From IMG/VR virus record IMGVR_UViG_3300027770_000034: a stretch of 64,000 nucleotides of DNA, one strand, 5' to 3'. This document shows positions 10,441 to 46,573 of this stretch, in pieces; the first letter of the stretch is position 1, and each line of letters begins with the position of its first letter. Made by a program: the position numbers and the translations under genes. Origin of the DNA: a virus (taxonomy: Duplodnaviria; Heunggongvirae; Uroviricota; Caudoviricetes). The notes under the pieces are model-generated. The model had not been told where the DNA came from and did no database searches. It saw only the letters and a program-made list of their open reading frames with translations.

Positions 10441-12593
<2,153 letters not shown>

Positions 12594-12594
<1 letters not shown>

Positions 12595-22376: not shown

Positions 22377-22493
22377 TGAAAAAGTTATTAAGAAAATTAG
22401 ACTGGATTTGGGATTATTATTTTGTATACTTCCTATACAATGGTAATAGAACACAAGATTACATTGATTACATGGAAAAAAAATGGGGAAAAA

Positions 22494-22718
22494 ATGAGTA
22501 AAGAAATGGTAAATGGACCTGCTCACTATGGTGGTGTAGATAATCCATATGAAGTAATTAAAGTTTGTGAAGCATGGGGATTAGATTTGGATGCATATCT
22601 TTTCAATGTAGTAAAGTATGTTGCAAGGGCGGGCAAGAAAGATAATACAAAAGAACTTGAAGACTTGAAAAAAGCCGCATTTTATTTAGACCGTAAAATT
22701 AAAAACTTAGAGAAATGA
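22494..22718 (+). CDS. DUF3310 family protein
   Basis: MSKEMVNGPAHYGG..YEVIKVCEAWGL..YLFNVVKYVARAGKK....DLKKAAFYLDRKI matches the phage DUF3310 signature (HY...IEVI...W.L.F..GNAIKYI.RAG.K......DL.KA.WYL.R). Confidence 0.6.
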   Translation: MSKEMVNGPAHYGGVDNPYEVIKVCEAWGLDLDAYLFNVVKYVARAGKKDNTKELEDLKKAAFYLDRKIKNLEK

Positions 22719-23152
22719 TTTATTGGTTAACAGGCCAACCTGGTGCAGGTAAGACTACTTTAGGAAATTGGTTAATAGCAGCATTACAGGGAGACGCAGT
22801 ATTGGTTGATGGCGATGACATCAGAGAAATCTTTGAGAATAAAGACTATAGTGAACAAGGACGTAGAAAGAATATTGAGTTAGCACAAAATATTTCTCAT
22901 TTTTTACACAATAAAAAAATGAACTCAGTAGTTTGCTTAGTGTCACCCTACAGAGACCAAAGAGAAAGTTTTAAAGAAAAGATAGGAAAAGATATTGTTG
23001 AACTTTACATCCATACCAATGAGATTAGAGGTAGAGAATCGTTTCATGTTGAAGGATATGAACAACCTTTAGAGAATTTTATTGATGTTGATACAACAAA
23101 TAAAAAAGTTTTTGATACCCTTCAAGAAATCAGAGTCAAATTAAAAATATAA
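22715..23152 (+). CDS. adenylyl-sulfate (APS) kinase-like P-loop kinase
   Basis: YWLTGQPGAGKTT...LVDGDDIRE...VVCLVSPYRDQRE parallels the APS kinase (CysC) segments IWLTGLSGAGKTT / LDGDNIRQGLN / VCITSFISPYxxDR. It is shorter than canonical CysC. Confidence 0.65.
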   Translation: MIYWLTGQPGAGKTTLGNWLIAALQGDAVLVDGDDIREIFENKDYSEQGRRKNIELAQNISHFLHNKKMNSVVCLVSPYRDQRESFKEKIGKDIVELYIHTNEIRGRESFHVEGYEQPLENFIDVDTTNKKVFDTLQEIRVKLKI

Positions 23153-23553
23153 TGAAAAAAATACATGTAGAGGGAGACCCTAAATTAAAAAACACTGGAG
23201 GTAAACAACACTCAATGGTTGTTGGACGATTTCAACCTTTTCACGACGGACATAAATGGTTGGTAAATCAATGTCTTGAAGACGGAAAGAATGTTCTCAT
23301 CCTTATTAGAGACATTGTACCTGACGAGAAAAATCCATTCACCGCATTAGAAGTTTCAAAAAATATTAATATGGAACTTTGGGATTATATTAATCAAGGT
23401 AGAGTTGTGGTGATGATTATTCCTGATATTGAATCAGTAAACTTTGGAAGAGGAGTTGGTTATGATATTATAGAACACATACCACCACAAGAAGTTAGTG
23501 AAATATCTGCAACAAAAATTAGGGAACAATTAAAACAAGAAGGTAAATTATAA
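23152..23553 (+). CDS. NMNAT-type (archaeal NadM-like) cytidylyltransferase-fold nucleotidyltransferase
   Basis: VVGRFQPFHDGHKWL (H-x-G-H motif), ENPFTALE and ISATKIREQL parallel archaeal NMN adenylyltransferase (GRFQPFHKGH ... NPFTAGER ... SGTEIRRRM). Translationally coupled to the APS-kinase-like gene by an ATAATG overlap. Confidence 0.65.
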   Translation: MKKIHVEGDPKLKNTGGKQHSMVVGRFQPFHDGHKWLVNQCLEDGKNVLILIRDIVPDEKNPFTALEVSKNINMELWDYINQGRVVVMIIPDIESVNFGRGVGYDIIEHIPPQEVSEISATKIREQLKQEGKL

Positions 23554-24401
23554 TGTTAGAAACAAATAAAATAATTAATGGGGATTGTATCAAAGTGATG
23601 GCAAGTCTTCCTGAGTCTTGTGTTGATTTGATAGTAACATCACCTCCATACAACGTGGGGATTGATTACGATAGTTATAACGATAAACAATCTATGGAAG
23701 ATTATTGGCAGTTTACTAAAGACTGGTTATCAGAGTCTTATAGGATTCTTAAAGACGACGGAAGAATTGCTGTAAACATTCCATACGAAGTTAACGTACA
23801 GGATAGGGGCGGGAGAATACTATTCATGTCTGAGTTTTATCAGATTATGAAGAATCTTGGATTTAAATTCTTTGGACTAGTAGACCTCAACGAACAGTCA
23901 CCACACAGAAGTAAAACCACTGCTTGGGGTTCATGGATGTCTCCGTCAGCACCTTATATCTACAACCCTAAAGAGTGTGTTATTCTTGGATACAAAAAGA
24001 ATCACATAAAGAAAGTTAAGGGTGAACCACAGTGGAAAGGGGAGTTGGTTGATTTAGAACAAGAAGATGGTACCATCAAACAGAAGATGATGTATCAAGA
24101 AGAAGATAAGAAAGAGTTTATGAGTTTGGTTTATGGTCAGTGGGAATACTTTGCAGATACTAAACAACAAACTAAAGCCACCTTTTCAATGGACATTCCA
24201 ATGAAGGCAATTAAGATTCTTACATACAGGAATGATTTAGTTCTTGACCCATTCACGGGTAGTGGTACTAGTTTAGTTGCTGCTGAAGTTAGTGGAAGAC
24301 GATGGTTAGGAATAGAATTAAGTGAAAGTTATAGTAAAGTGGCCAAAGATAGAGTCCAACATTTTATAAATAAAAATAGACAAATGGAATTAGGTATATA
24401 A
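23553..24401 (+). CDS. DNA methyltransferase, beta class (N4-cytosine or N6-adenine; SPPY motif)
   Basis: Motif IV VTSPPYNVG lies near the N-terminus and motif I LDPFTGSGTS near the C-terminus. This is the beta-class order, as in M.PvuII and M.RsrI. Confidence 0.8.
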   Translation: MLETNKIINGDCIKVMASLPESCVDLIVTSPPYNVGIDYDSYNDKQSMEDYWQFTKDWLSESYRILKDDGRIAVNIPYEVNVQDRGGRILFMSEFYQIMKNLGFKFFGLVDLNEQSPHRSKTTAWGSWMSPSAPYIYNPKECVILGYKKNHIKKVKGEPQWKGELVDLEQEDGTIKQKMMYQEEDKKEFMSLVYGQWEYFADTKQQTKATFSMDIPMKAIKILTYRNDLVLDPFTGSGTSLVAAEVSGRRWLGIELSESYSKVAKDRVQHFINKNRQMELGI

Positions 24402-24406
24402 TTAAA

Positions 24407-24428
24407 GGGTCATACGACCCTTTTTTTA
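24407..24428 (+). terminator. Rho-independent terminator
   Basis: GGGTCATACGACCC plus T7. Confidence 0.7.
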
Positions 24429-24459
24429 TTTATATGGATATTTATTAAGAAAAATACAG

Positions 24460-25590
24460 ATGGCTGAAATTATTATAAACGAAAGACAATTGGAGATACT
24501 CCAAAATTTAATCACAAAAGAAGAAAATCTAAAATTAGCCGAACAAAATTGGGCAAGATTCAACGATAAAGAAAAAGAAATGGTTGTTGAGATGATGAAA
24601 GTCTTGCACCCAAAAAAAGCCATGTTAATCAAAGAAGATAAATGGTATAATACTTTAGGTGATGTTGTGGGTATTTTTGACCCTACAGGTGTGGTAGATG
24701 CAATAAATGGTATTTCATATATAGGTCAAGGTGATTATTTATTTGGATTTTTATCATTTGTTTCAGCAATACCATATGCTGGTGATTTAATTGCAAAACC
24801 TGTGATGGGAGCATTAAAGATTGGTGCACCAAGTGCAAAGGCTTTAAATGGGGTTATGAAATTATCAAAGGCTGGTAAGTCAGCAGAAGCTGCGGCTGAA
24901 CTAGCTAAAATTTCTAAATCAGGAGGTATCGTAGGAAGTTTTGTTAGTGGTGTTGGAAAATATGCGGGAAAACTTAAAGATTTAGTTTTAAGAATCCCAA
25001 TGCCAGGTGGAATGAAAAGAACACTTACACAATGGATAGAGTTATTTGAAAAAGGTGCGGTTAAAGGAAAAACGGTTAGATACGGAGCAGGTGTTTTTGC
25101 AAAAAATATACCAAAGTTAAGTAAAGATGCCCAAATTGCAGGACTTCAAAAATTAATTAAGGCATCAAAAGAAAGTGGTTTATTTACATCTTATAGGACA
25201 ACCAAAGGTTTATTGTCGTGGAAAAGTGTTTTCAGAGGAATGCCTCAATTAATAGGAAGAAATGCTTCAGTTAGGTCTTTAATGAGACAAACTAAACTTT
25301 GGGCAGGATTTTTAGATTTTGTTGGATTAGGTAATTTTGTTGGTCCTGATGAGGCGTTGAAAGAAATGGGTCAAGAGCAATTAGAATCAAAATTCGCGGA
25401 ATATCAAAAAACACCCGAAGCTCAGCAATATGCACAAGAAACTTTTGGAGACGCGGAAGTTCCTGATACTCAAACACAACAATCAACAGCAAGTTCTTCT
25501 AAACCAACTAATTCAAAAAACCCTATTGGAGACTTTTTTAGTAGTATTTTTGGTGGAGCATCTAAAGGCGAATTTTTAGCCGCATTATAA
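24460..25590 (+). CDS. hypothetical Gly/Ala/Lys-rich protein with conserved N-terminal motif
   Basis: 376 aa. N-terminus MAEIIINERQLEILQNLI carries the I-I-x-[STN]-E-x-[QD]-[LF] motif that recurs in this window. Confidence 0.5.
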   Translation: MAEIIINERQLEILQNLITKEENLKLAEQNWARFNDKEKEMVVEMMKVLHPKKAMLIKEDKWYNTLGDVVGIFDPTGVVDAINGISYIGQGDYLFGFLSFVSAIPYAGDLIAKPVMGALKIGAPSAKALNGVMKLSKAGKSAEAAAELAKISKSGGIVGSFVSGVGKYAGKLKDLVLRIPMPGGMKRTLTQWIELFEKGAVKGKTVRYGAGVFAKNIPKLSKDAQIAGLQKLIKASKESGLFTSYRTTKGLLSWKSVFRGMPQLIGRNASVRSLMRQTKLWAGFLDFVGLGNFVGPDEALKEMGQEQLESKFAEYQKTPEAQQYAQETFGDAEVPDTQTQQSTASSSKPTNSKNPIGDFFSSIFGGASKGEFLAAL

Positions 25591-25602
25591 AAAAAATTAA
25601 AA

Positions 25603-25974
25603 ATGAAAGAAGAATTAACACTCAAATTATTACAAATTCAATTACAGTTCAAATTTTTGCATTGGCAAACATTTGGAGACGCTAAACATAAGGCTTATGG
25701 TGACATATATGATTTATTAGGTGACATCATAGATAAATTTGTAGAGGCTATGATGGGGAAATATGGTAGAGTTGAATTTGAACCTGAATTTTCAATCATG
25801 TTTCAAGATATTAAGTCATTAAGTGTACAAAACTTTATGGATGGAATTACTGAATTTTTAGTAGGTATGTCTGACCATTTAGATTCAAGATATGATAGTG
25901 ATTTATTAAATCTAAGAGATGAAATGTTGGCCGATATCAATCAATTAAAGTACAGACTTACATTAAAATATTAA
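25603..25974 (+). CDS. Dps/ferritin-like four-helix-bundle protein (tentative)
   Basis: LKLLQIQLQFKFLHWQTFGDAKHKAYGDIYDLLGDIIDKF resembles the Dps N-terminal helix pair (L..LLA....L..K...FHW.V.G..F..LH..FEE.Y.E....D.IAERI). It is shorter than typical Dps. Confidence 0.45.
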   Translation: MKEELTLKLLQIQLQFKFLHWQTFGDAKHKAYGDIYDLLGDIIDKFVEAMMGKYGRVEFEPEFSIMFQDIKSLSVQNFMDGITEFLVGMSDHLDSRYDSDLLNLRDEMLADINQLKYRLTLKY

Positions 25975-25975
25975 T

Positions 25976-26353
25976 ATGGTAAAAAAAGTAATAAGACTTA
26001 CAGAGAATGATTTAACTAATCTTGTTAAGAGAGTTATTTCAGAACAAAATCTTGAAAGAGAATTTGTTAGAGCTATTCAACGATTTTTAATATCTAAAAA
26101 AATTACAGGTGATAATAGACAACCCTTAGTTGTTGATGGTAAAACAGATAATAATTTAACATCACAAACTGCACAGGCAATATCAAAATATCAAGCGGCT
26201 ATCGGATGTCGTCGTACTGAGGGAGTGTGGGGTGAAGAAACTTGGAGCAAAATGCCTCCTAAAGACAAACAAGAATTAGAGGACTTTGTTGCGGAAGAAG
26301 GAGGGCTTATTGACCAATTTATAAATTGGATAGGTAAAAAATTCAGAGGGTAA
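25976..26353 (+). CDS. peptidoglycan-binding-domain protein with conserved N-terminal motif
   Basis: N-terminus MVKKVIRLTENDLTNLVKRVISEQ is shared with 58546 and 59712. C-terminus VVDGKTDNNLTSQTAQAISKYQAAIG...GVWGEETW fits the PG_binding_1 pattern. Confidence 0.55.
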   Translation: MVKKVIRLTENDLTNLVKRVISEQNLEREFVRAIQRFLISKKITGDNRQPLVVDGKTDNNLTSQTAQAISKYQAAIGCRRTEGVWGEETWSKMPPKDKQELEDFVAEEGGLIDQFINWIGKKFRG

Positions 26354-27766
26354 TTGAAAAAATTAATTAAAGAGAGTGGTATAAGAGACATTTCGGCTTT
26401 AAGGAAGAGATACCCTAAAGCCGAAATTTATTTTCACCAAGATTTAGATGGTGTTACCACTGCGATTGCGATGAAGAAATACCTTGAAAACAATGGTATT
26501 GATGTTGTGGGTGCTCATATTATACAATATGGTGATAAAGAGTTTTCAGTTAAAAAGAATGACGCTAGTGGTGATGTAATGCCAGTACTTGTTGATTTTG
26601 CACACGGAAAACCAATGTTCAAGATTCACACAGACCATCATGACAAACAAGTTGGTGCTGAAAAAGGAACTTCAAAATCTTTCAGACAAGCTCGTTCAAA
26701 TGTTGAAACAATATCTCAAGTTGTTTCACCTAAAAAATTGTTCCCAAGTTCAGATGTTTTATTAATTAATACAGTTGATTCTGCAGACTTCGCAAGACAA
26801 AACATTACGCCAGACGAAGTGGTAAACTACATCTATAGAATAGATAAAGATAAATCACTTCAAAGAAATAAATTGTTATTAGGATTTGTTATTAACAAAT
26901 TAATATTAGCATTTAAAAACAAACCAGGATTTTTAGAAAGACTTGTTATGGATTCAGAACCTTCGCTAATGAATATTTTGAACAACATTAAAGAATGGAT
27001 GAAAGATACTAACGCACCTGAGCCAGAAGAATTACAAAGAAATGCAGAAGACTATAAAGAAAAAATGAAGGGATTTCCCGAAGTACAAGACAATATTATT
27101 TACCAATACGGTGGAGGTAGTATGTTCAAGCCTGGGTCATATGACAGGTATACCCCATTTAGAAATAATCCTGATGCAGACTTTCTCATTATGGTTTGGC
27201 CGATGGGGTTGGTACAGGCTTCATGTAATCCGTTTAAAAAGGATAGGGAACTTAAGGATGTTAACCTTGGCGAGATTGCCCAAGAGGTTATATCAAGGTG
27301 GGAAGGCCAACTTAAAGAAAAGAAAATACCGTTATCATCAATAAAGTGGATTAGTGAAACAAGTGTTAACCCTGAGAGTATTGGGTTTACGTTCCAAGAT
27401 TTTGATGCGATTTATGGCGGAAAATTTATTGGTGTACCTAACGGAGAAGAGGCATTGATGAGAATTAAAGAAATGATGGAAAAACCATTTAAAGATTTAA
27501 CGGATAGAGAAAAGAACATATTAGATAATGTATTGATAAATGCTTGGGATTTAATTCAGGCAAACTCAGGTGGACATAAGTGTATAACTAATATCAGCGG
27601 ATTAAATTATTTGGGTAGAGGTACAAGACCTCCTCAAGGGACGTATCGTTATGACTCAGAGAAAGAAGACCATCCTTATGTTAAATTTACAAAAATGATT
27701 GCTCAGGAGTTCAGAAAAAAACTCCAAGAAAAGATTGAGGAATCCAAACAGTCTGTTGAATCTTAA
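26354..27766 (+). CDS. DHH-family phosphoesterase
   Basis: Motif I FHQDLDGVTTAIAM (H-x-D-x-D-G) and motif III IHTDHHDKQ (DHH). 470 aa. Confidence 0.65.
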   Translation: MKKLIKESGIRDISALRKRYPKAEIYFHQDLDGVTTAIAMKKYLENNGIDVVGAHIIQYGDKEFSVKKNDASGDVMPVLVDFAHGKPMFKIHTDHHDKQVGAEKGTSKSFRQARSNVETISQVVSPKKLFPSSDVLLINTVDSADFARQNITPDEVVNYIYRIDKDKSLQRNKLLLGFVINKLILAFKNKPGFLERLVMDSEPSLMNILNNIKEWMKDTNAPEPEELQRNAEDYKEKMKGFPEVQDNIIYQYGGGSMFKPGSYDRYTPFRNNPDADFLIMVWPMGLVQASCNPFKKDRELKDVNLGEIAQEVISRWEGQLKEKKIPLSSIKWISETSVNPESIGFTFQDFDAIYGGKFIGVPNGEEALMRIKEMMEKPFKDLTDREKNILDNVLINAWDLIQANSGGHKCITNISGLNYLGRGTRPPQGTYRYDSEKEDHPYVKFTKMIAQEFRKKLQEKIEESKQSVES

Positions 27767-27784
27767 TTAATTATTTTTTATATT

Positions 27785-28330
27785 TTGTGTATGTCAAATA
27801 AAGTATACACAAAGAAAGGAGATGACGGAAGTACGAGTCTTTTGTCAGGAAGAAGAATCTCAAAAATGACTTCAGAAATTAAAGCTGTTGGGGTTTTAGA
27901 TGAATTAAATTCATTCATAGGTTTATTAAGGAGTGAATTGGTATATTCTGAAGCTTCATTTGAAATGATTCAATGGAATCTATTCAATGCAGGGTCCACA
28001 ATCATTAATGATAATAATGTTGAACTAACTGAGATAAATTCTGAGGATTCAAAAACTCTTGAAGATTGGATGGATAAGATGAATGAAGAACTTCCAGTAT
28101 TAAAAAACTTTATATTACCCAAAGGAAATAGAGTTGTGAGTTTGGCTCACATTTGTAGAACGGTGTGTAGACGAGCTGAAATTACGGTTCTTGAATGTAT
28201 TGTTCTTGACAACTTTGTCAAGTTAAATCCTATTACAATTTATTTAAACAGACTAAGTGATTTCTTTTTTGTTTTGGCAAGATACCTTTCACATAAAGAT
28301 AATATTGAAGAAACTATTTGGAAAAACTAA
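27785..28330 (+). CDS. PduO-type ATP:cob(I)alamin adenosyltransferase family protein
   Basis: KVYTKKGDDGSTSLLSGRRISK....KAVGVLDELNSFIG parallels PduO/MMAB (IYTKTGDKG.TSL..G.RV.K....EA.G..DELNS.IG). Confidence 0.75.
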   Translation: MCMSNKVYTKKGDDGSTSLLSGRRISKMTSEIKAVGVLDELNSFIGLLRSELVYSEASFEMIQWNLFNAGSTIINDNNVELTEINSEDSKTLEDWMDKMNEELPVLKNFILPKGNRVVSLAHICRTVCRRAEITVLECIVLDNFVKLNPITIYLNRLSDFFFVLARYLSHKDNIEETIWKN

Positions 28331-28674
28331 AAGATATATTCTACAGAATCACCAGGTTGTATATTCAAGTCTTCACAAGTGCCACCTTCTAATTCTAAAA
28401 CAATATTACCTCTTCCACAATATGACAGACAAGGGTCTTCATTACAAGGAGGACAATCAAAATGAATATTCACAATAACATTATTTTTTATTATGATGAT
28501 ATCAAGTGGTATGATACAATTCTTCATCCAAAAACATTGTTTCTTTCCACCCATTAAAAATAGCAGACCGTCAAACGTAGAGTCAAATCTCTTATACATC
28601 ATACCGATGGCTTGAGATTTTTTATCTACTAAAGTTTTGACATTAAAAATATTATCATTAATTTTAACTTTCAT
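28327..28674 (-). CDS. DUF192 family protein
   Basis: Start trimmed to MKVKINDN. MGGKKQCFWMKNCIIPLDIIII...NIVLELEGGTCEDLNIQPGDSV matches DUF192 (GLM.......GMLF.F......FWMKNT..PLDI.F......VLEL.AG.....GI..GD.V). Confidence 0.6.
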   Translation of the reverse strand: MKVKINDNIFNVKTLVDKKSQAIGMMYKRFDSTFDGLLFLMGGKKQCFWMKNCIIPLDIIIIKNNVIVNIHFDCPPCNEDPCLSYCGRGNIVLELEGGTCEDLNIQPGDSVEYIF

Positions 28675-28688
28675 ATATAATAAATACC

Positions 28689-29108
28689 ATGGATAAAAAA
28701 AGATACGTAGGAGTGGTGGTAAAACATCAAAACAAACTTCTTTTATGTAAAAGAAACAATTTGGGTTCATTCCCTGGAATGTGGTCAATACCTGGAGGTA
28801 AGTTAGAAGAGAATGAAACTACTCAAGAAGGAGCCAAAAGAGAATTCTTTGAAGAGACAGCATTAAACATTAATGACGTTGAATTAACATTTGTTGGTTT
28901 AATACCACGACATACCAGAGATGGTAAGAAGGTTAAAGGGTTCATGTATGTATATTTATTGAACGTAGAGTTTCCATTATATCCTGATTTATTAAATGCA
29001 ATAGATGGGGAAGAACATACAGAGTGTGGGTACTTTACATTAGAAGAAATTAAACCTGAAACATCAGGTGAGTATTTTTATAAACTTGCTGAAATAATTC
29101 TATCATGA
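28689..29108 (+). CDS. Nudix hydrolase
   Basis: Nudix box GGKLEENETTQEGAKREFFEETAL (G-x5-E-x7-REUxEExGU). Confidence 0.8.
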   Translation: MDKKRYVGVVVKHQNKLLLCKRNNLGSFPGMWSIPGGKLEENETTQEGAKREFFEETALNINDVELTFVGLIPRHTRDGKKVKGFMYVYLLNVEFPLYPDLLNAIDGEEHTECGYFTLEEIKPETSGEYFYKLAEIILS

Positions 29109-29629: not shown

Positions 29630-29702
29630 CGTGAGGTAGAGCAGTGGTAGCTCGGAAGGCTCATAACCTTTAGGTCGCGAGTTCGAATCTCGCCCTCGCA
29701 AC
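29630..29702 (+). tRNA. tRNA-Met (CAU anticodon), initiator-like C1:A72 mismatch
   Basis: Cloverleaf read by hand. Acceptor CGTGAGG/CCTCGCA has a C1-A72 mismatch. D arm GAGC-AGTGGTA-GCTC. Anticodon stem GAAGG/CCTTT with loop CTCATAA. T arm GCGAG-TTCGAAT-CTCGC. No encoded CCA. Confidence 0.85.
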
Positions 29703-29904: not shown

Positions 29905-30916
29905 AGTGAAGAGAAGGGGTAGTAAAGGTTCCAAGTTTACTTGGTCGTAAAGTTTCCCCTTTTCTTCATTCTTTAAAAAGTTCTTTGAATAAAAATATTG
30001 TCTGTTCAGAATGTTTGATGATGAGACCTTCGGGTTGATTTTGAGTAACAAACTGATAAGATATATTGGGCGGTCTATAGTCCATAAAATAAACCATGAA
30101 AGTGGTATAAAGTGATTTGTTCTTGATTGGAACGGTTGCGGCTTCGGAAACGGAGCTCGAGTAGACAAACGAGATATCATCTGACCTTTAGTATTGAGGG
30201 TAACACTGTAGGGAAAGTGGTTAGATGACTAAGCGATGTGGGTCGTTTAGTTGAGGTGGGAACACCGATAAGAATAACTCGTAGGGCTGTTGTAAGAAGT
30301 ATGGTCGTCCAACTATACAATTGCGGAGTTCAATATTAGAGTAGATTTAAAACCGAAAGGTAAGAGTTCGTACAGGTGGTGCTGTTGTTCTCCTTATCAG
30401 AGACCTACCAAGGTTTCAGTTATGAAATAGACTCAAAGTATGGAGGTCGGGAGACTTCAAGGTGTAGTTCAGCATTGTCTCGTTCAAAAGATGGGGCATC
30501 TGGTTTGACGAACCGCTACATCTATCATCCACAAATCAAACTTTTACTTTCAAATGGTGAAAACTAAAATAAATAAAAGGAAAAGTGTTCGTCAGTCGTG
30601 GTAGACAGGTCACTACTTAGTCATGAGTTGTTCATGGCCGTAAAGGGTCCCAAACCCGATACGATTGTTTTGAAAGTTCTCTAATCCCGCAAGGATGAGT
30701 TTGGGTGGCAACCTAGAAGAGTGATGAGTAAGAATAGAGTATATTACGACTTTAGGATTGGTTAATCTAATTGACCGTGACTGAGAGGTACTTCTCAAAA
30801 GGAAGTGGAAATCGGAGGAAACAATAATCTCCTGTAAAGTCTCTCACAAGATGGTGTATTCTCAACCTATTTTGCCTTAACCCTGTCCGTTTCTACGGAT
30901 GGGGTTTTTTGTTTTT
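29905..30916 (+). ncRNA. candidate large structured non-coding RNA (about 1 kb)
   Basis: About 1 kb with no plus-strand ORF above 63 aa in an otherwise roughly 90 percent coding genome. GC visibly above the surrounding sequence. Many local hairpins with tetraloops: GACCTTCGGGTTG, CGGCTTCGGAAACGG, ACCGAAAGGT and TCCCGCAAGGA. A long stem GAAGAGAAGGGG...CCCCTTTTCTTC sits at the 5' end. Ends in a strong intrinsic terminator. Confidence 0.45.
30881..30916 (+). terminator. Rho-independent terminator
   Basis: CCCTGTCCGT TTCT ACGGATGGGG hairpin plus TTTTTTGTTTTTT. Confidence 0.65.
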
Positions 30917-35078: not shown

Positions 35079-35501
35079 ATGTCAATTAAAGTAACTTTAA
35101 CTGAAAAAGAAATCCTTGATACACCAAACGATGCTATGTTGGGTGAGTTAACAAGAAACAAATACTGGCAAGCCAGAAGGGACCACGAAGGACCTCAATA
35201 TGATGACGAACACTTCGCTATGGTTATCGGAGATGACGGTCTTGTTAAGTCTATAATTCGTCCTTATAGGTGTTCTATCTGTGGTGGGGACACTTCAGAA
35301 GTTGAATATGATTATTTGGTTGGTTATGACCATTTGGGTTGTGTTCTTAAAGAAGAATCAGAAAGACCTGATAATTTTGACAAATGTGTTATCTGTGGAA
35401 AAGAAACACCATACCTACGTTCTACTCACATTGACTTAAGAGAAGGTTATGTTGAGGGCGGAGGACAAGGATGTTATCAACCAAACATTTGTGGTAAGTA
35501 A
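35079..35501 (+). CDS. zinc-ribbon hypothetical protein
   Basis: Two CxxC pairs, RCSICGGDT and DKCVICGKET. Confidence 0.5.
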   Translation: MSIKVTLTEKEILDTPNDAMLGELTRNKYWQARRDHEGPQYDDEHFAMVIGDDGLVKSIIRPYRCSICGGDTSEVEYDYLVGYDHLGCVLKEESERPDNFDKCVICGKETPYLRSTHIDLREGYVEGGGQGCYQPNICGK

Positions 35502-36070
35502 TGGGTTCGGGTATACCAGGGTATAACATATCTCAAAAATATAAATGTTTTTGGGTAGCTCCAAGTAGAACAGGAAGTAGAACCGTTGCGCAGATTTTAA
35601 CTCATTATGGTTTTAAATTTAATGGTGAACCTGTTTTTTATTATGAATCTTACAATTACAGTCACATCACCACAGATGTAAATCAATATCCAGATTATGA
35701 TTTCATCTGTAATGCGAGAAATCCTTATGGTAGAGTTTATTCTCATTTTCAAAATTACGGTGATAAGTTCAAACTTAAAACTAAAAGTAATTTTAGGGAG
35801 TACGTTGAGATGAAAATGTGGAAAGAAAATAGTCTACATTATCCAGTCTTAACAAAAAAACCTGACTATATTCTCAGACTTGAACACCTAAAGGAAGACT
35901 TAATGAAGATACCTTTTATTCTTGATAAGTTAACCGAAAGACAGTTAGATTTATATTTGGAACATGGGAAAACCCTTGAACCTTGGGAACCTCATTATGA
36001 CGATGATATTAAAGAAATTGTATATGAGGACTTCAAAGACCATTTTTATTTTTTTAATTATGAAAAATAA
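35501..36070 (+). CDS. PAPS-dependent sulfotransferase-like protein
   Basis: 5'-PSB-like loop WVAPSRTGSRTV (P-x-R-T-G-S). 3'-PB-like ARNPYGRVYS (R-N-P plus Ser at position 8, as in RNPKDVAVS). Paralog of 45926..46573. Confidence 0.6.
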   Translation: MGSGIPGYNISQKYKCFWVAPSRTGSRTVAQILTHYGFKFNGEPVFYYESYNYSHITTDVNQYPDYDFICNARNPYGRVYSHFQNYGDKFKLKTKSNFREYVEMKMWKENSLHYPVLTKKPDYILRLEHLKEDLMKIPFILDKLTERQLDLYLEHGKTLEPWEPHYDDDIKEIVYEDFKDHFYFFNYEK

Positions 36071-39449: not shown

Positions 39450-39778
39450 TGACACACCATAAAAGACATCAACAGATGATGTTTGATATTTTAAACAATT
39501 TTGACTTTCAAAAGGTTCACGACACCATGAAATGTCTTAACTGGACTTGGTACCCAAAAGGTATTCCAACAGCGGATTATATTGTATTTAGTGCTCGTGA
39601 AAAGATTGAGTCGGTAATCAAAAATTGTTTGTTAGATGCTAAACCAGACCAAGAATATTTTGTATCAAGTGGTGGATTAAAGGCAACTGCAATTAAAGAT
39701 GACTATGGACAAATTACTTTTCTTGAATTAGAATTTATATTAACTAGTTGGGAATTGAATGACCCTTATGAAATATGA
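39449..39778 (+). CDS. hypothetical protein
   Basis: 109-aa ORF coupled to its neighbours (ATGA overlaps). Confidence 0.45.
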   Translation: MTHHKRHQQMMFDILNNFDFQKVHDTMKCLNWTWYPKGIPTADYIVFSAREKIESVIKNCLLDAKPDQEYFVSSGGLKATAIKDDYGQITFLELEFILTSWELNDPYEI

Positions 39779-41022
39779 AAACAAAAAAACCAAGTGCAAT
39801 AGTTTACGGATGGTATAAAGAAGGCGAAGAGATATTAATCTCTGACATTTATTTTGAAGAAGGTTTAGAGGATGAAGTTGTTGTTTACGCTCTCCCATAT
39901 ACTAACGATGTTGTTGGTGATTTTTCAAAATATCAACCCGACCTTATCATTTCGTTTTTTGATGAGATTAATGTTCCGCACTATTATTTAAAACAACTCC
40001 ATATTCATTTTGATGAGATGCATGGGGATAATGTATTAGCAAATATAATTGTTTGCCAAACTGTTTTTAGACATACAAAAGTTATTAGACCAAGATTTTC
40101 AGTCTTTACTCCAACATATAAAACAGGAGAAAGAATCAAAAGAACTTATCAAAGTTTGGTTAATCAAACATTTTCTAATTGGGAATGGGTTGTTGTTGAT
40201 GATTCTCCTGATGACGAAACTTGGAAAATTTTACAAGAGATTTCCAATTATGATTACCGTGTAAAGTTACACAAAATATATCCAGTATCAGGTGGTAATG
40301 TTGGACTTGCAAAACACAGGGCGGCAATGCTTGGTGACGGTGATTGGTTGGTTGAGTTAGACCACGACGATTATTTAATTAGCACTTGTTTAGAAACCTG
40401 TAATGACGCCATCTTGAAACATCCTGATGGGGGATTTTTATATACAGATGTATGTGAACTTTATGAGGATGGTGAGATGAAATCATATGACCATGATTGG
40501 TCAGGTAATTGGTATGGAAGACCTGACAACTTTTTTGATTTTGGATATGCGGGACATAGTTGGGTTAATGCGGATGGAAAAGATTACTTATCTCATTGGT
40601 ACCCCGATATCAACCCACTAACGATTAGATTCAACATCTCAATGCCAGACCACGTAAGAATGTGGGAACGTAACCTTTATCATCAAATCGGTGGACATAA
40701 TAAAAATACACCTGTTGCAGATGATTTGGAAATGATTATTAGAAGTTTCTTACACACACGATTTATTCACGTAAAACGTATGTTATATTTACAATACAAC
40801 AATAGAAATAGTACCGTTGATAATAACGCACAAGATATAAACCGAAGAGCAAGATTAATAAGAGATTATTATGATATTGCAATTCACAATCGTATTACTG
40901 AATTAGGGTTTGAAGATTGGTGTTGGAATGAAGATAGGCAACATTCACATAAATTCCAAAACCACCAACCTGAAAAAAGATTTTACGATAAAGAAGAAGT
41001 AATGAATTACATTTATGAATAA
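39775..41022 (+). CDS. family 2 glycosyltransferase
   Basis: PRFSVFTPTYKTGERIKRTYQSLVNQTFSNWEWVVVDDSPDDETW is the classic GT2 N-terminal signature, with DxD LDHDD. Confidence 0.8.
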   Translation: MKTKKPSAIVYGWYKEGEEILISDIYFEEGLEDEVVVYALPYTNDVVGDFSKYQPDLIISFFDEINVPHYYLKQLHIHFDEMHGDNVLANIIVCQTVFRHTKVIRPRFSVFTPTYKTGERIKRTYQSLVNQTFSNWEWVVVDDSPDDETWKILQEISNYDYRVKLHKIYPVSGGNVGLAKHRAAMLGDGDWLVELDHDDYLISTCLETCNDAILKHPDGGFLYTDVCELYEDGEMKSYDHDWSGNWYGRPDNFFDFGYAGHSWVNADGKDYLSHWYPDINPLTIRFNISMPDHVRMWERNLYHQIGGHNKNTPVADDLEMIIRSFLHTRFIHVKRMLYLQYNNRNSTVDNNAQDINRRARLIRDYYDIAIHNRITELGFEDWCWNEDRQHSHKFQNHQPEKRFYDKEEVMNYIYE

Positions 41023-42172
41023 GAAAACCAAAATATGTTTAAACGCAATGGTTGGCAATGAAGCCAAGACCATTCTAAGAATGCTAGAGTCAGTGGCTCT
41101 TCACATAGATTATTGGGTCATCCAATGCAATGGCAAAGAAGATAATACAAGTCAAATTATTAACGAATTTTTTGACGAACAAGGAATTCCTGGATTTACT
41201 TATGAAACTGATTGGAATTATCCAGGATTTAATAGAGACCACACTCTTCAAGAAGCACTTAAAGCTGACCACGGATGTGATTGGATTTTAAGAATGGATG
41301 CTGATGAGAGACTTCACGTTGATGAGGATTTTGATTGGTCATTACTTGATGATACATCAGTACAGAGTTATAATATGGGCGCTGAGGCTGGAGATACAAA
41401 ATATTTCAGAACATGGTTTTGGAATAGTAAGTTACCATGGTTCTTTCAACATGACAAAAGACACGAAACAATTCATTTACCTGAAATTGGTGAAGGGTTC
41501 CAAAGAAATAATATGCCTTGGGGATTTAGACACAAGGTATCACAAGATGGTGAGACTTGGCACGTACCAAGAAAGTTTTTGAATGATGCTTTAGAATTAG
41601 AAAAAGATAAAGTTGTTGGGTATAAAGTTTTAGAAGATTATTATCATTTGTGGTATATTGCTAAAAGTTATGCCGATAGTTATGGAAATCCAGATGAATT
41701 ACCTTTTGGTAAAATTCATTCTGATGAATATGCCAGACGTTCAATATGGTACTACGAAAGATTCTTAGAATTAACACATGATTGGAGTAATTCAAAAACT
41801 GCTAAAGGTAAAGACGAAATGTGTTATTATGCGTTGATTATGATGGCACATGCACATAGTTTTATTGGAAATATAAAAGAAGCTGAAGAACATTTTTTAT
41901 TGGCTGAACAATTTCAACCTGAAAGAAATGAACACTTGGTTTACTTGTGTATCTTTTTAGAAAATGAGGGAAGACAAAATGATATGATGCAATATATTGA
42001 CAAAATGTTACAATCCGAAAGAGTAAATCCGTTTCCAAATCTAAGTTTTTTAATTGAAAACAGGGCTTATTATAATACAGGAGATTATCTAATTAAACTT
42101 AAAGAAAAAATTCAAAAAAAATCCGAAGAGTTTTCAATTAATTTAGATTCCATTACTTTTGATTTCAAATGA
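41015..42172 (+). CDS. GT2-like glycosyltransferase with C-terminal TPR-like region
   Basis: N-terminus KICLNAMVGNEAKTILRMLESV resembles the ISLCMIVKNEE signature of TPR-containing GT2 enzymes. C-terminal helical-repeat region. Overlaps neighbours by 8 and 4 nt. Confidence 0.55.
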   Translation: MNKKTKICLNAMVGNEAKTILRMLESVALHIDYWVIQCNGKEDNTSQIINEFFDEQGIPGFTYETDWNYPGFNRDHTLQEALKADHGCDWILRMDADERLHVDEDFDWSLLDDTSVQSYNMGAEAGDTKYFRTWFWNSKLPWFFQHDKRHETIHLPEIGEGFQRNNMPWGFRHKVSQDGETWHVPRKFLNDALELEKDKVVGYKVLEDYYHLWYIAKSYADSYGNPDELPFGKIHSDEYARRSIWYYERFLELTHDWSNSKTAKGKDEMCYYALIMMAHAHSFIGNIKEAEEHFLLAEQFQPERNEHLVYLCIFLENEGRQNDMMQYIDKMLQSERVNPFPNLSFLIENRAYYNTGDYLIKLKEKIQKKSEEFSINLDSITFDFK

Positions 42173-43284
42173 TTTTAATGAAAAAACCATATGATTACTT
42201 AATAGTTGGAGCGGGACCTTATGGTTCCGTTTCTGCGTATGAATTAACCAAGAGAGGTAAGAAATGTTTGGTCATAGATAAACGTGATGTTATTGGTGGT
42301 AATTGTTATACTGAAAACGTAAACAATATTCATGTTCACAAATACGGAGCACACATATTTCATACCAACGACAAATATATTTGGGATTACGTAAATCAGT
42401 TTGCCGAATTTAAACAATATACACATAATGTTATTGCGAATTACAAAGGAGAAATGTACACACTCCCATTTAATATGTGGACATTCAATCAATTGTGGGG
42501 TGTTAAAACTCAAGAAGAAGCCGAAGCAATCATTGAAAAACAAAAATACAAAGGTAAAATTCAAAACCTTGAAGACCAAGCAAGGTCAATGGTTGGCGAT
42601 GATGTATACGAAAAACTTATCAAAGGGTATACAGTCAAACAATGGGATAAGCCATGTTCAGAGTTACCACCATCAATCATCAAAAGACTCCCAGTAAGAT
42701 TTACTTGGGATAGTAACTACTTCAACGACAAGTATACTGGGATGCCTGTTGGGGGTTATACTCAAATATTTGAAAAGATGTTAAATTGTTGTGAGGTTAA
42801 GTTGGGTGTAGATTATTTTGAAAATAGGGATTATTATGATAGTCTTGCCGACAAAGTTATCTACACAGGACCAATTGATAGATATTTTGATTACCAGTTT
42901 GGTAAGTTAGAATATAGGAGCCTAAAATGGGAAACAGAAATACTTGAGAAAGATAATTTCCAAGGAGTTCCCGTGGTAAACTATACTGACTTAAAGATTT
43001 CATATACAAGAATATTAGAACATAAGTGGTTTGACCATCAGAACCAAAAGGGTACAATTATTAGTTATGAATATCCTGCCGCTTACGATGGTAAGAATGA
43101 ACCATATTACCCTATTAGAGACGATAAAAACACTCAGGTCTATACCAAGTATCAAGAACTAACTAAACCTCTTAAAAACGTTTATTTTGGGGGTAGATTG
43201 GCGACGTATGTTTATTATGATATGCATCAAATAATTGCTCAGGCATTAAAGATGATAGGGCACCTTGACGAATCTGAAAAATAG
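42169..43284 (+). CDS. glf: UDP-galactopyranose mutase
   Basis: YDYLIVGAGPYGSV (FAD Rossmann GxGxxG), KCLVIDKRDVIGGNCYTE, IHVHKYGAHIFHTNDKYIWDYV and LPFNMWTFNQLWG parallel Glf along its whole length. Confidence 0.9.
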   Translation: MILMKKPYDYLIVGAGPYGSVSAYELTKRGKKCLVIDKRDVIGGNCYTENVNNIHVHKYGAHIFHTNDKYIWDYVNQFAEFKQYTHNVIANYKGEMYTLPFNMWTFNQLWGVKTQEEAEAIIEKQKYKGKIQNLEDQARSMVGDDVYEKLIKGYTVKQWDKPCSELPPSIIKRLPVRFTWDSNYFNDKYTGMPVGGYTQIFEKMLNCCEVKLGVDYFENRDYYDSLADKVIYTGPIDRYFDYQFGKLEYRSLKWETEILEKDNFQGVPVVNYTDLKISYTRILEHKWFDHQNQKGTIISYEYPAAYDGKNEPYYPIRDDKNTQVYTKYQELTKPLKNVYFGGRLATYVYYDMHQIIAQALKMIGHLDESEK

Positions 43285-45699: not shown

Positions 45700-45929
45700 A
45701 AGAATTAGACTTACACGGATTATCACATGAAGAAGTTTGGGATGTTGTTGAAAACTTCGTACTAATGAACTCAGAAGAATTACCTTTAAAAATTATTACA
45801 GGTAATTCAGACAGAATGAAAGAGATTGTTACAGGAGTGTTGGACTCTTATGACTACGTGTATGAAACACCTGCACATAACGGAGGAGAAATAATTGTTT
45901 TAGAAGATAGAGATACAATATTTGATTAA
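45696..45929 (+). CDS. Smr domain protein
   Basis: ELDLHGLSHEEVWDVVENFV......LPLKIITGNS parallels Smr (LDLHGL...EA...L..FL..A...G.....IIHGKG). Confidence 0.7.
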   Translation: MKELDLHGLSHEEVWDVVENFVLMNSEELPLKIITGNSDRMKEIVTGVLDSYDYVYETPAHNGGEIIVLEDRDTIFD

Positions 45930-46573
45930 CTTTTCCAAGAGTCTTTATCATATCCAAACAGTTCAAATGAATCTGGATGATTATAATATACTAAATCGGC
46001 TAAAGATTGGTCATAGTATTTTTTCCAATAATCTCCTCCCTCATTAATTGAATTGTTCAATCTTATTTTGGTTAAAGTTTCCAATTCGCCTGACAAATTA
46101 AATCCATGGTTGGGAACAAATGGTAATTTTAACCAATCTTCGTATAAATGTTCTAATCTTATAATATAATCAGGTTTTCTTTGATGAAAACATTGACAAC
46201 AACCGTCAACATCAAATGGATTTTGCATCATATTTTCAACCCTAGATTTCAAAAATTGATAAATGAATGAAAAATCATTATGTTTACTAAATTCACCATC
46301 ATTTATACCTGACCTTGAAATAATCATTGAATAAGGATTTCTTACTGATATAACAAATTTATAATCCCAATGATTCTCAAAAAAATTACAAGTGTGATTA
46401 TGTCTAACTCCTGTTTTAAAATTAGATAATTTTTTTGTTTCCAAATTTAAATCTGCAGATTGAAAACCCAACATATCCAAAATAGTGGTGAAATGAGTGG
46501 ACCCAGTTCTTTCAGGAGTCCAACAAAAAAATTTGTATTTTTCAGAAATATTTATCGGTTTAATATGATTCAT
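45926..46573 (-). CDS. PAPS-dependent sulfotransferase-like protein (paralog)
   Basis: FFCWTPERTGSTHF (P-x-R-T-G-S-T), SVRNPYSMIISRS (R-N-P plus Ser at position 8) and YIIRLEHLYEDWLKLPF parallel 35501..36070. Confidence 0.6.
   Translation of the reverse strand: MNHIKPINISEKYKFFCWTPERTGSTHFTTILDMLGFQSADLNLETKKLSNFKTGVRHNHTCNFFENHWDYKFVISVRNPYSMIISRSGINDGEFSKHNDFSFIYQFLKSRVENMMQNPFDVDGCCQCFHQRKPDYIIRLEHLYEDWLKLPFVPNHGFNLSGELETLTKIRLNNSINEGGDYWKKYYDQSLADLVYYNHPDSFELFGYDKDSWKS

What the first reader, a model, noticed from the sequence alone, without database searches (positions are those of the whole stretch)
22715..27766. Candidate phage-encoded sulfation pathway: APS-kinase-like gene coupled to a mini nucleotidyltransferase, a DHH phosphoesterase and two distant sulfotransferase paralogs
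The protein at 22715 aligns segment by segment with APS kinase (P-loop, LDGDxIR, SPY..DR), the enzyme that makes PAPS. It is translationally coupled to a 133-aa HxGH nucleotidyltransferase of the NMNAT and sulfate-adenylyltransferase superfamily. That small enzyme could be a novel APS-forming enzyme. Alternatively the pair may form a split NadR-like NAD salvage unit. Elsewhere in the window are two paralogous proteins (35501..36070 and 45926..46573) carrying both PAPS-binding sulfotransferase signatures, P-x-R-T-G-S-T and R-N-P-x5-S. A DHH-family phosphoesterase (26354..27766) also sits nearby. In bacteria, NrnA-type DHH enzymes are the pAp phosphatases that remove the sulfotransferase by-product. 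Together this would be a near-complete viral sulfation pathway (PAPS synthesis, sulfotransfer, pAp recycling). I am not aware of this combination being described for phages. Plausible targets are the phage's own galactofuranose glycans or the host surface.
Basis: partly seen in the sequence, partly recalled or inferred. Interest (0 to 1): 0.8.

Follow-up and report, generated by a model that had tools for sequence, protein, structure and literature searches.

The report
Phage sulfation module with mini nucleotidyltransferase
A large freshwater phage carries a shortened APS kinase, a tiny NMNAT-like nucleotidyltransferase that travels with APS kinases and sulfotransferases in many uncultured microbes and other phages, and two compact sulfotransferases, which suggests that the phage makes its own activated sulfate and that the small enzyme may be an unrecognised kind of ATP sulfurylase.

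Summary
The 22715 protein belongs to the APS kinase family: it passes the Pfam cutoff and its best solved relatives are APS kinases. Its lid is shortened and it scores below NCBIfam's equivalog cutoff. The 133-aa nucleotidyltransferase (NTase) is closest to archaeal NMNAT, not to ATP sulfurylase, and lacks about 25 residues of NMNAT.

The NTase's associations are the main result.
- Of 48 multi-domain relatives, 31 are fused to APS kinase, in both orders, and some of those kinases are full-length.
- In 47 of 77 bacterial or archaeal loci a kinase is fused to it or lies just upstream.
- Those loci are capsule-type, with Pfam-verified sulfotransferases and, in Flavobacteriales, a CysQ-like phosphatase. 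None has Sat or CysDN motifs.
- Related phages place a sulfotransferase paralog two genes upstream of the kinase.

The DHH protein keeps the DHH and GGH motifs, but nothing ties it to pAp recycling.

Verdict: PAPS supply plus sulfotransfer is well supported. The NTase as an APS-forming enzyme is plausible but unproven.

The parts
22422..22718 (+). DUF3310 protein. It is the first gene of the overlapping chain and is conserved directly upstream of the kinase in this phage lineage. Its role is unknown.
   Evidence: Pfam DUF3310, 54.2 bits. Present in 78 of 80 related IMG/VR loci. ATGA overlap with the kinase start.
22715..23152 (+). Mini APS-kinase-family P-loop kinase (145 aa) with a shortened lid. 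It is the inferred APS 3'-kinase that makes PAPS.
   Evidence: Pfam APS_kinase 56.5 bits (cutoff 21.1). TIGR00455 61.6 bits, below its cutoff of 138.7. Best PDB hits are APS kinases. In the alignment with canonical CysC, the P-loop, D32-G-D34, R37, R50, S-P78, R83, R105 and YExP are kept and about 18 lid residues are missing. The same mini form lies in Marinimicrobia loci that carry a sulfotransferase.
23152..23553 (+). Mini HxGH nucleotidyltransferase (133 aa) derived from archaeal-type NMNAT. It is a candidate sulfate adenylyltransferase that would form APS.
23553..24401 (+). N6/N4 DNA methyltransferase, the last gene of the overlapping chain. It is context only and is probably not part of the sulfation function.
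   Evidence: Pfam N6_N4_Mtase, 122 bits. Conserved after the NTase in 78 of 80 related loci.
26354..27766 (+). Divergent DHH-superfamily phosphoesterase (470 aa). Its subfamily and substrate are unresolved, and a link to pAp recycling is not shown.
   Evidence: Pfam DHH 19.6 bits, below the 28.1 cutoff; no DHHA1 hit. Invariant H28/D30/D32, D81, D94-H95-H96, D142 and G406-G407-H408. No PDB match by sequence or profile. More than 4000 homologs, the top 120 at 80% identity or more. Homologs occur in 635-735 kb megaphage records that gave no kinase match.
35501..36070 (+). Compact sulfotransferase-like protein, paralog 1 (189 aa).
45926..46573 (-). Compact sulfotransferase-like protein, paralog 2 (215 aa).
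   Evidence: 31% identical to paralog 1, E 1e-22. Carries PERTGST and RNPYSMIIS. In 18 of the 80 related phage loci fetched, hits scoring best to this paralog occur within 10 kb of the NTase; in most of them one lies two genes upstream of the kinase.
39775..43284 (+). Glycan genes lying between the two sulfotransferase paralogs: GT2, GT2 and UDP-galactopyranose mutase. They are a possible source of the acceptor, by inference only.
   Evidence: Glycos_transf_2 66 bits; Glyco_tranf_2_4/Glycos_transf_2 weak, below cutoff (25.5 and 21.3 bits); GLF 259 bits.

Best explanation
The window comes from a large freshwater phage that carries its own supply of activated sulfate and its own sulfotransferases.

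Proposed mechanism:
1. The 133-aa NMNAT-derived nucleotidyltransferase condenses ATP with sulfate to give APS. This step is inferred.
2. The translationally coupled mini APS kinase phosphorylates the 3'-OH of APS to give PAPS. Family membership is shown; the activity is inferred.
3. The two compact sulfotransferase paralogs move the sulfuryl group to an acceptor. The fold (modelled for paralog 1) and the PAPS-binding motifs in both paralogs are shown; the acceptor is unknown. It may be a glycan built by the GT2/GT2/UDP-galactopyranose mutase genes that lie between the paralogs.

The kinase-NTase pair is a conserved two-gene unit. It also occurs fused, in either order, in other phages. In uncultured bacteria and archaea it sits in capsule-type loci with sulfotransferases and, in Flavobacteriales, with a CysQ-like phosphatase.

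The DHH phosphoesterase is a conserved gene of this phage lineage whose part in the pathway is not established.

My sub-estimates: about 0.8 that the kinase and the sulfotransferase-like proteins form a PAPS-dependent sulfation module, and about 0.45 that the NTase is itself the ATP sulfurylase.
For: Kinase:
- Pfam APS_kinase 56.5 bits. Best solved relatives are APS kinases.
- Catalytic and APS-contact positions are conserved against canonical CysC.

Link between NTase and kinase:
- phrog_10255 is a fused kinase-NTase family.
- Of 48 multi-domain cluster representatives of the NTase family, 31 carry APS_kinase.
- These include full-length canonical domains at 139-231 bits, in both orders.
- In GTDB genomes a kinase is fused (5), directly upstream (39) or within two genes (3) in 47 of 77 loci.

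Link to sulfation:
- A Pfam-verified sulfotransferase lies within 8 kb in 26 of 49 kinase-bearing loci, against 1 of 31 without a kinase.
- Neighbours are CapD, DegT, UDP-glucose dehydrogenase, Wza, Wzi, GT4 and Bac_transf genes.
- Flavobacteriales loci read CysC, NTase, Inositol_P (CysQ-like, 168 bits), Wzx, then two or three Sulfotransfer_1/3 genes.
- No Sat, CysD or CysN motifs occur in any of the 80 loci or in the window.

Phage evidence:
- In 18 of 80 related IMG/VR loci a gene scoring best to paralog 2 lies within 10 kb of the NTase. In most of them the order is sulfotransferase paralog, one small ORF in the DUF3310 position (some loci have one or two more ORFs), kinase, NTase, methylase.
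- An unrelated phage contig has a fused APSK-NTase followed by a Sulfotransfer_2 gene.
- Another has an NTase-APSK fusion followed by a gene that matches this window's sulfotransferase family HMM.
- A 636-kb phage-like contig has the pair plus a weak Sulfotransfer_2 gene 3 kb away.

Sulfotransferase paralogs: invariant motifs and, for the modelled paralog 1, a sulfotransferase fold.

NTase versus NMNAT: the NTase lacks about 25 residues of NMNAT. From memory of the NMNAT structures, that stretch holds nicotinamide-binding residues.
Against: - It fails the Pfam ATP-sulfurylase cutoff and lacks the GRDHAG motif.
- Thirty of 77 cellular loci have the NTase with no kinase nearby, in housekeeping contexts.
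- Candidate-phyla-radiation (CPR) fusions sit beside guanylate kinase and a NUDIX protein.
- Xylella phage Salvo has a fused kinase-NTase but no detectable sulfotransferase in 50 of its 55.6 kb.
- The kinase scores below NCBIfam's equivalog cutoff and has a truncated lid.
- The sulfotransferase paralogs fail Pfam cutoffs.
- In this window the paralogs lie 12 and 22 kb from the pair.
- Whether the host or the cellular carriers have Sat or CysDN elsewhere could not be checked.
- Many of the cellular loci are related Marinimicrobia, so the counts are not independent.
Confidence: 0.55

Rival explanations
1. Only the kinase and the sulfotransferases form the sulfation module. The phage takes APS made by the host's own sulfurylase and converts it to PAPS. 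The NTase does something else that merely travels with APS kinase, such as a regulatory, scaffolding or nucleotide-recycling role, or adenylylation of another small anion.
For: The NTase is NMNAT-like and not Sat-like. It occurs without a kinase in 30 of 77 cellular loci. Viral cysC alone is commonly listed as an auxiliary gene.
Against: Repeated fusion in both orders to canonical APS kinase argues for consecutive steps in one pathway. In the loci with CysC, a CysQ-like gene and sulfotransferases, no Sat or CysDN motif was found and the NTase is the only candidate seen for the sulfurylase step.
Confidence: 0.2
2. The pair makes a different 3'-phosphorylated nucleoside-diphosphate donor, by analogy with the Campylobacter O-methyl phosphoramidate pathway. 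There a CysC-like kinase (Cj1415) phosphorylates the product of a nucleotidyltransferase (Cj1416). The sulfotransferase-like proteins would then transfer that other group.
For: The loci are capsule loci, as in Campylobacter. A GATase gene lies next to the kinase-less NTases, and Cj1417 is a GATase-type enzyme (own knowledge). cj1415-cj1418 are required for MeOPN synthesis (PMC3907429).
Against: The neighbours are Pfam-verified sulfotransferases (Sulfotransfer_5 at 164 bits; Sulfotransfer_1/3; Sulfotransfer_2) and a CysQ-like pAp phosphatase. No glutamine kinase or amidohydrolase partner appeared among the conserved neighbour families of the kinase-bearing loci, or among the window ORFs that were scanned. 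Many of the fused kinases are canonical CysC at up to 231 bits.
Confidence: 0.07
3. A split NadR-like or NadM-like NAD salvage unit: the NTase is an NMN adenylyltransferase and the kinase is a ribosylnicotinamide or NAD kinase, perhaps working with the Nudix gene at 28689-29108.
For: The closest solved relatives of the NTase are NMNATs, including NadM-Nudix and NadR. A Nudix gene lies 5 kb downstream. CPR fusions lie next to a NUDIX protein.
Against: The kinase matches APS kinase and not RNK: AAA_28 scores only 15 bits. The NTase is far below the NMNAT equivalog cutoffs (34.6 against 181) and lacks about 25 residues of NMNAT. Partner genes are CysC, CysQ-like and sulfotransferases. The Nudix protein is most like MutT.
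Confidence: 0.05
4. A nucleotide or DNA-modification function tied to the DUF3310 and DNA methylase genes of the same overlapping chain. The sulfotransferase-like genes would be unrelated passengers.
For: DUF3310, kinase, NTase and methylase form one conserved overlapping chain. In Xylella phage Salvo the fusion sits among MazG-like and topoisomerase genes with no sulfotransferase found.
Against: It does not explain the cellular capsule-locus context, the CysQ-like gene, or the sulfotransferases adjacent to the pair in independent phages.
Confidence: 0.06

Closest known systems
Bifunctional PAPS synthases and Sat-CysC fusions (human PAPSS1/2; Aquifex aeolicus SAT/APS kinase, PDB 2gks)
   Different: The NTase here is 112-160 aa and descends from archaeal NMNAT. 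It has no PUA-like domain, no GRDHAG motif and no significant match to the Sat family model. The window's kinase lacks part of the lid.
Bacterial PAPS-supply-plus-sulfotransferase gene clusters with cysQ, cysC, cysD and cysN beside a sulfotransferase (for example the Bacteroides thetaiotaomicron BT0412-BT0416 cluster; own knowledge, not found in the paper library)
   Same: An APS kinase, a pAp phosphatase and sulfotransferases lie together, as in the Flavobacteriales loci L057, L058, L064 and L066.
   Different: No CysDN motif was found in those loci, and the mini NTase is the only candidate seen for the sulfurylase step. The phage window has no CysQ-type gene.
Archaeal-type NMN adenylyltransferase / NadM (PDB 1f9a, 1ej2, 2qjt)
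   Different: About 25 residues between the IPDIE strand and GYE(V/I) are replaced by a family-specific (S)VNYGRxVGY loop with invariant G99 and nearly invariant R100 (at least 90% of sequences). Scores are far below the equivalog cutoffs. Gene partners are CysC and sulfotransferases, not NAD genes.
Campylobacter jejuni MeOPN donor pathway (Cj1415 CysC-like kinase with the Cj1416 nucleotidyltransferase)
   Same: A CysC-family kinase works on the product of a nucleotidyltransferase inside a capsule locus (own knowledge; genes named in PMC3907429).
   Different: The neighbours here are sulfotransferases and a CysQ-like phosphatase. No glutamine kinase or amidohydrolase was found next to the kinase-bearing pairs.
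Viral cysC and viral sulfotransferase reported singly as auxiliary metabolic genes in viromics surveys
   Same: cysC is listed for large freshwater phages (bioRxiv 10.1101/2020.02.13.942896). Sulfotransferase is listed as a viral auxiliary gene (PMC8290583).
   Different: Those are catalogue entries for single genes. In the paper searches I ran I found no description of the coupled mini NTase, of its fusions with APS kinase, or of its linkage to sulfotransferases.

Membership tests
APS kinase (CysC; Pfam PF01583, NCBIfam TIGR00455) | P-loop GxxGxGK[ST] and the (L/V)DGDxxR motif | tested here: met
   GQPGAGKT and VDGDDIR are present. D32, G33, D34 and R37 are invariant in the alignment with canonical CysC domains.
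APS kinase (CysC; Pfam PF01583, NCBIfam TIGR00455) | Score above the curated family cutoff | tested here: inconclusive
   The Pfam cutoff is passed (56.5 against 21.1). The NCBIfam equivalog cutoff is not (61.6 against 138.7).
APS kinase (CysC; Pfam PF01583, NCBIfam TIGR00455) | Complete lid segment (RDxKGLYKKARxGEIxxFTGI) between the core and YExP | tested here: not met
   Fourteen lid residues plus four more upstream are absent. The same short form occurs in Marinimicrobia and MGIII archaea next to the NTase.
APS kinase (CysC; Pfam PF01583, NCBIfam TIGR00455) | Phosphorylates the 3'-OH of APS | not testable with these tools
   Needs an enzyme assay or cysC complementation.
ATP sulfurylase (Sat; Pfam PF01747) | Match to the family model above its cutoff | tested here: not met
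   15.7 bits against a cutoff of 24.3. No sulfurylase among the PDB profile hits at E<=1.
ATP sulfurylase (Sat; Pfam PF01747) | QxRNPxHxxH and GRDHAG motifs, and a PUA-like N-domain | tested here: not met
   The protein has GRFQPFHDGH and a different conserved loop, NFGRGVGY. It has no GRDHAG and, at 133 aa, no extra domain.
ATP sulfurylase (Sat; Pfam PF01747) | Nucleotidylyltransferase (HIGH) fold shared with Sat | tested here: met
ATP sulfurylase (Sat; Pfam PF01747) | Forms APS from ATP and sulfate | not testable with these tools
   Only gene fusion and gene neighbourhood evidence is available.
Archaeal-type NMNAT / NadM | GRFQPFHxGH and ISxTxIR signature motifs | tested here: met
   Both are present and nearly invariant in the family.
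Archaeal-type NMNAT / NadM | Full-length core including the segment between the IPDIE strand and GYEV, and a score above the equivalog cutoff | tested here: not met
   Forty-four NMNAT residues (1f9a 66-109) correspond to 19 profile positions. TIGR01527 scores 34.6 against 181.2 and NF002243 scores 38.4 against 127.
PAPS-dependent sulfotransferases | 5'-phosphosulfate-binding loop and 3'-phosphate-binding R...S motif | tested here: met
   P21-x-R23-T24-G-S26 and R73-N74-P75...S81 are invariant in 27 sequences, with H55 also invariant. hhalign aligns the RNP...S stretch in register with Pfam-verified sulfotransferases.
PAPS-dependent sulfotransferases | Score above a Pfam sulfotransferase cutoff | tested here: not met
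   Sulfotransfer_3 scores 14.3 bits against 27. Twelve of 27 relatives hit Sulfotransfer_1 only weakly (best E 6e-4).
PAPS-dependent sulfotransferases | Sulfotransferase fold | tested here: met
NrnA-type DHH/DHHA1 pAp phosphatase | DHH motifs I-IV and the DHHA1 GGGH motif | tested here: inconclusive
   The motif residues are invariant. Pfam DHH is below its cutoff and there is no DHHA1 hit.
NrnA-type DHH/DHHA1 pAp phosphatase | Detectable similarity to NrnA or CnpB enzymes | tested here: not met
   No PDB hit at E<=10 with the sequence, and only one unrelated hit (E 2.6) with the family profile. NCBIfam gives only RecJ at E about 0.1.
NrnA-type DHH/DHHA1 pAp phosphatase | Co-occurrence with PAPS-pathway genes outside this lineage | tested here: not met
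   Homologs occur in megaphage records that gave no kinase match. The single NTase-DHH/DHHA1 fusion (P0453) is a different DHH subfamily (pairwise E 0.022).

The most novel reading that the evidence does not exclude
The NMNAT-derived mini nucleotidyltransferase (112-160 aa, with a conserved GRxQPxHxGH ... YGRxVGY ... ISATxIR pattern) is a third, previously unrecognised class of ATP sulfurylase. It would have displaced Sat or CysDN next to APS kinase in Marinimicrobia (SAR406), marine group III archaea, Flavobacteriia, CPR bacteria and several phage lineages. With it, this phage would run a self-contained route from sulfate to PAPS to a sulfated product.
Probability: 0.42. Interest if true: 0.85.

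Novelty: new variant of a known kind. Interest (0 to 1): 0.72.

Why it matters
Sulfate activation is thought to rest on two enzyme types, Sat and CysDN. A third, very small type would change how sulfur assimilation and polysaccharide sulfation are read from genomes of abundant uncultured marine and freshwater microbes. At present these genes are annotated only as 'cytidyltransferase-like' or 'hypothetical'.

For phage biology it would show that a virus can bring its own PAPS supply together with its own sulfotransferases. That points to sulfated glycans or other sulfated products made during infection, with possible effects on adsorption, superinfection exclusion or host surface properties.

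A 130-aa sulfurylase paired with a 145-aa APS kinase would also be a compact tool for regenerating PAPS in biocatalysis.

Tried and rejected
- Megablast of the region against phage records found nothing.
- tblastn of the sulfotransferase paralog against phage records found nothing.
- PHROGs and NCBIfam gave no hits for the sulfotransferase paralogs or the DHH protein beyond noise.
- Sequence and profile searches of the sulfotransferase family against PDB sequences gave only chance hits. Only fold comparison resolved it.
- The DHH protein had no PDB match by sequence or profile.
A narrower alignment worked.
- hhalign of the viral sulfotransferase family against the Sulfotransfer_5 family found nothing. 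Against Sulfotransfer_1/3 it found only the 26-column 3'-PB stretch.
- The NadR-like reading was rejected. The kinase is APS-kinase-like, the NTase is truncated relative to NMNAT, and the neighbours are sulfation genes.
- A eukaryotic giant-virus origin was considered at first (AT-rich, collagen repeats, paralog families). It was dropped because of pervasive overlapping start/stop codons, DUF3310, tail-fibre-like genes, and homology of the DHH-like gene to the 635-735 kb megaphage records.
- I looked for a sulfotransferase in Xylella phage Salvo, which has the fused kinase-NTase. None was found in 50 kb.
- The literature searches I ran found no description of a mini NTase fused to APS kinase or of a phage PAPS pathway.

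Full report
**What is in the window**

The kinase (22715-23152), the NTase (23152-23553) and the DHH protein (26354-27766) are on the plus strand. So is the first sulfotransferase-like gene (35501-36070). The second (45926-46573) is on the minus strand.

Four genes form one overlapping chain: DUF3310, kinase, NTase and an N6/N4 DNA methylase. Their junctions read ATGA, TAATG and TAATG.

The same DNA occurs on freshwater-lake metagenome contigs of up to 81 kb. Related IMG/VR contigs reach 321 kb. The DHH protein has tblastn matches in 635-735 kb 'uncultured phage' records. Overlapping gene starts, DUF3310 and collagen-like fibre genes fit a large tailed phage. The host is unknown.

**The kinase**

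- It matches Pfam APS_kinase at 56.5 bits, above the 21.1 cutoff.
- Its best solved relatives are archaeal and bacterial APS kinases (7yq0, E 1.8e-11).
- It scores below NCBIfam's equivalog cutoff (61.6 against 138.7).
- Aligned with canonical CysC domains, it keeps the P-loop, DGD, R37, an aromatic residue at Y46, R50, N53, S-P78, R83, R105 and YExP.
- It lacks 14 lid residues plus four more upstream.
- The roles I assign to these residues come from memory of the Penicillium and human APS kinase structures.
- The family is large: 2674 hits, mostly about 145 aa.

**The nucleotidyltransferase**

- It passes the Pfam CTP_transf_like cutoff and scores only 15.7 bits on ATP-sulfurylase.
- A profile of 31 relatives hits archaeal NMNAT and NadM at E 6e-12 and hits no sulfurylase.
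- That alignment replaces 44 NMNAT residues with 19 positions. These carry a family-specific loop, (S)VNYGRxVGY, with invariant G99 and nearly invariant R100.
- The AF2 model is confident (pLDDT 91.4).
- So the enzyme descends from NMNAT and has lost a segment which, from memory of the NMNAT complexes, holds nicotinamide-contacting residues.

**What the NTase travels with**

This is the decisive evidence.

- PHROG 10255 is a fused kinase-NTase family. It is found in Xylella, Xanthomonas and Stenotrophomonas phages.
- An exhaustive search found 461 cluster representatives at E<=1e-10.
- Among the 48 multi-domain proteins in the top 150, 31 carry APS_kinase. Every other partner was seen in only one or two of them.
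- The fusions occur in both orders. They include full-length canonical APS kinases at 139-231 bits.
- In one genome per GTDB species, 172 loci encode a relative. They come from Marinimicrobia, Flavobacteriales, MGIII archaea, Nitrospiraceae, Thermodesulfobacteriota/Dadabacteria and CPR bacteria.
- Of the 77 loci analysed with an NTase ORF, a kinase is fused in 5, directly upstream on the same strand in 39, and within two genes in 3.

**Link to sulfation**

- The kinase-bearing loci are capsule-type loci with CapD, DegT, UDP-glucose dehydrogenase, Wza, Wzi, GT4 and Bac_transf genes.
- They also hold a Sulfotransfer_5 gene scoring 164 bits.
- Flavobacteriales loci read CysC, NTase, a CysQ-like Inositol_P phosphatase (168 bits), Wzx, then two or three Sulfotransfer_1/3 genes.
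- A verified sulfotransferase lies within 8 kb in 26 of 49 kinase-bearing loci, against 1 of 31 others. Fisher's test gives p = 1.6e-6, but the loci are not phylogenetically independent.
- No Sat, CysD or CysN motif occurs in any of these loci or in the window.

**Phage-side support**

- In the 80 closest IMG/VR relatives, the block DUF3310-kinase-NTase-methylase is conserved.
- In 18 of them a gene scoring best to paralog 2 lies within 10 kb of the NTase. In most it sits two genes upstream of the kinase.
- An unrelated phage contig has a fused canonical APSK-NTase followed at once by a Sulfotransfer_2 gene.
- Another has an NTase-APSK fusion followed by a gene that matches this window's sulfotransferase family HMM (E 2.6e-7).
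- A 636-kb contig has the pair (NTase 52% identical) with a weak Sulfotransfer_2 gene 3 kb downstream.

**The sulfotransferase paralogs**

- They are 31% identical.
- They belong to a family of 66 proteins with no Pfam assignment.
- In 27 aligned members, PxRTGS, H55 and RNPY...S81 are invariant. The R-to-S spacing of eight matches the 3'-phosphate-binding motif of cytosolic sulfotransferases (own knowledge).
- Twelve of 27 members hit Sulfotransfer_1 weakly.
- The AF2 model of paralog 1 is confident (pLDDT 90.9).
- The Foldseek list is dominated by sulfotransferases, but at weak E-values.
- The two genes flank two GT2 glycosyltransferases and a UDP-galactopyranose mutase. A Galf-containing glycan is therefore a reasonable but untested acceptor.

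**The DHH protein**

- Its DHH motifs I-IV and a C-terminal GGH are invariant down to 27% identity.
- Pfam DHH is below its cutoff, DHHA1 is not detected, and nothing in the PDB matches.
- It is one of the most conserved genes of the lineage: the top 120 hits are 80% identical or more, out of about 4100.
- Homologs occur in megaphage records that gave no kinase match.
- One NTase-DHH/DHHA1 fusion exists (P0453), but its DHH part is a different subfamily.
- I therefore do not count the DHH gene as a demonstrated part of the pathway.

**Points that do not fit**

- Thirty cellular loci have the NTase with no kinase nearby, among housekeeping genes.
- CPR fusions sit by guanylate kinase and a NUDIX protein.
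- Phage Salvo has the fusion but no detectable sulfotransferase.
- The NTase may therefore have a wider or different chemistry.
- Its sulfurylase role rests on fusion and neighbourhood evidence only.

**Novelty**

- Viral cysC and viral sulfotransferases have each been listed as auxiliary genes.
- I found no description of the mini NTase, of its fusion to APS kinase, or of a phage PAPS-plus-sulfotransferase module.
- Public annotations call the NTase 'cytidyltransferase-like' or 'hypothetical'.

**Verdict**

- My estimate is about 0.8 that the kinase and the sulfotransferase-like proteins form a PAPS-dependent sulfation module.
- It is about 0.45 that the NTase is itself the APS-forming enzyme.
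- There is no positive evidence for the DHH protein as the pAp phosphatase.

Noticed in passing
window 30460-30868 (+): A full-length GOLLD RNA (Rfam RF02032, 328 bits against a gathering score of 150, model positions 1-416). It lies about 760 nt downstream of a tRNA-Met, in an ORF-poor stretch.
   Followed up: no
window 29630-29702 (+): A tRNA-Met (CAT anticodon), found by both ARAGORN and Rfam.
   Followed up: no
window 10441-12594, 12594-14522, 14515-16368 (+): Three tandem collagen-like ORFs (GAQGNTG-type Gly-X-Y repeats; 717, 642 and 617 aa). Their G+C is 44-48% against about 31% elsewhere. Their globular C-termini resemble each other by eye. A gene in a related contig, apparently in the corresponding region, carries Peptidase_S74. 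They are probably tail fibres.
   Followed up: partly
window 25976-26353, 58546-59049, 59712-60260 (+): Three otherwise different proteins start with the same motif, (K)(I/V)(I/V)RLTE.DL..(I/L)V.(K/R)VI.E. This may be a shared targeting or packaging signal. The first protein also has weak endolysin and PG-binding hits.
   Followed up: partly
window 27785-28330 (+), 28327-28788 (-), 28689-29108 (+): A PduO-type cob(I)alamin adenosyltransferase (164 bits), a DUF192 gene (named from related records) and a MutT-like Nudix hydrolase lie just after the DHH gene.
   Followed up: no
window 39775-43284 (+), 51413-52847 (-): Glycan-related genes: GT2, GT2 and UDP-galactopyranose mutase (GLF, 259 bits), and on the other strand a Metallophos phosphoesterase and another GT2.
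   Followed up: partly
L001-L004 (e.g. L002 6817-7029) and one fused representative in alignment A7: A small DUF2061 membrane protein lies directly downstream of the NTase on the 636-kb contig, and is fused to an NTase relative elsewhere. Its role is unknown. A link to anion transport is only a guess.
   Followed up: no
L060-L090 (Thermodesulfobacteriota/Dadabacteria) and L054, L055, L063 (Nitrospiraceae): A 152-190 aa subfamily of the NTase stands alone, with no kinase nearby. In the Thermodesulfobacteriota/Dadabacteria loci it is in a conserved housekeeping neighbourhood: GATase class I, Leu/Phe-tRNA protein transferase, L31, methyltransferase, ALAD and UbiD/UbiX/UbiA. Its function may differ from that of the kinase-coupled forms.
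   Followed up: partly
window 2492-3412 (+), 8939-9566 (+): By eye, a DnaJ-like protein with a J-domain and CxxCxGxG zinc-finger repeats, and two small thioredoxin- or glutaredoxin-like ORFs (translations). None was scanned against profile libraries.
   Followed up: no
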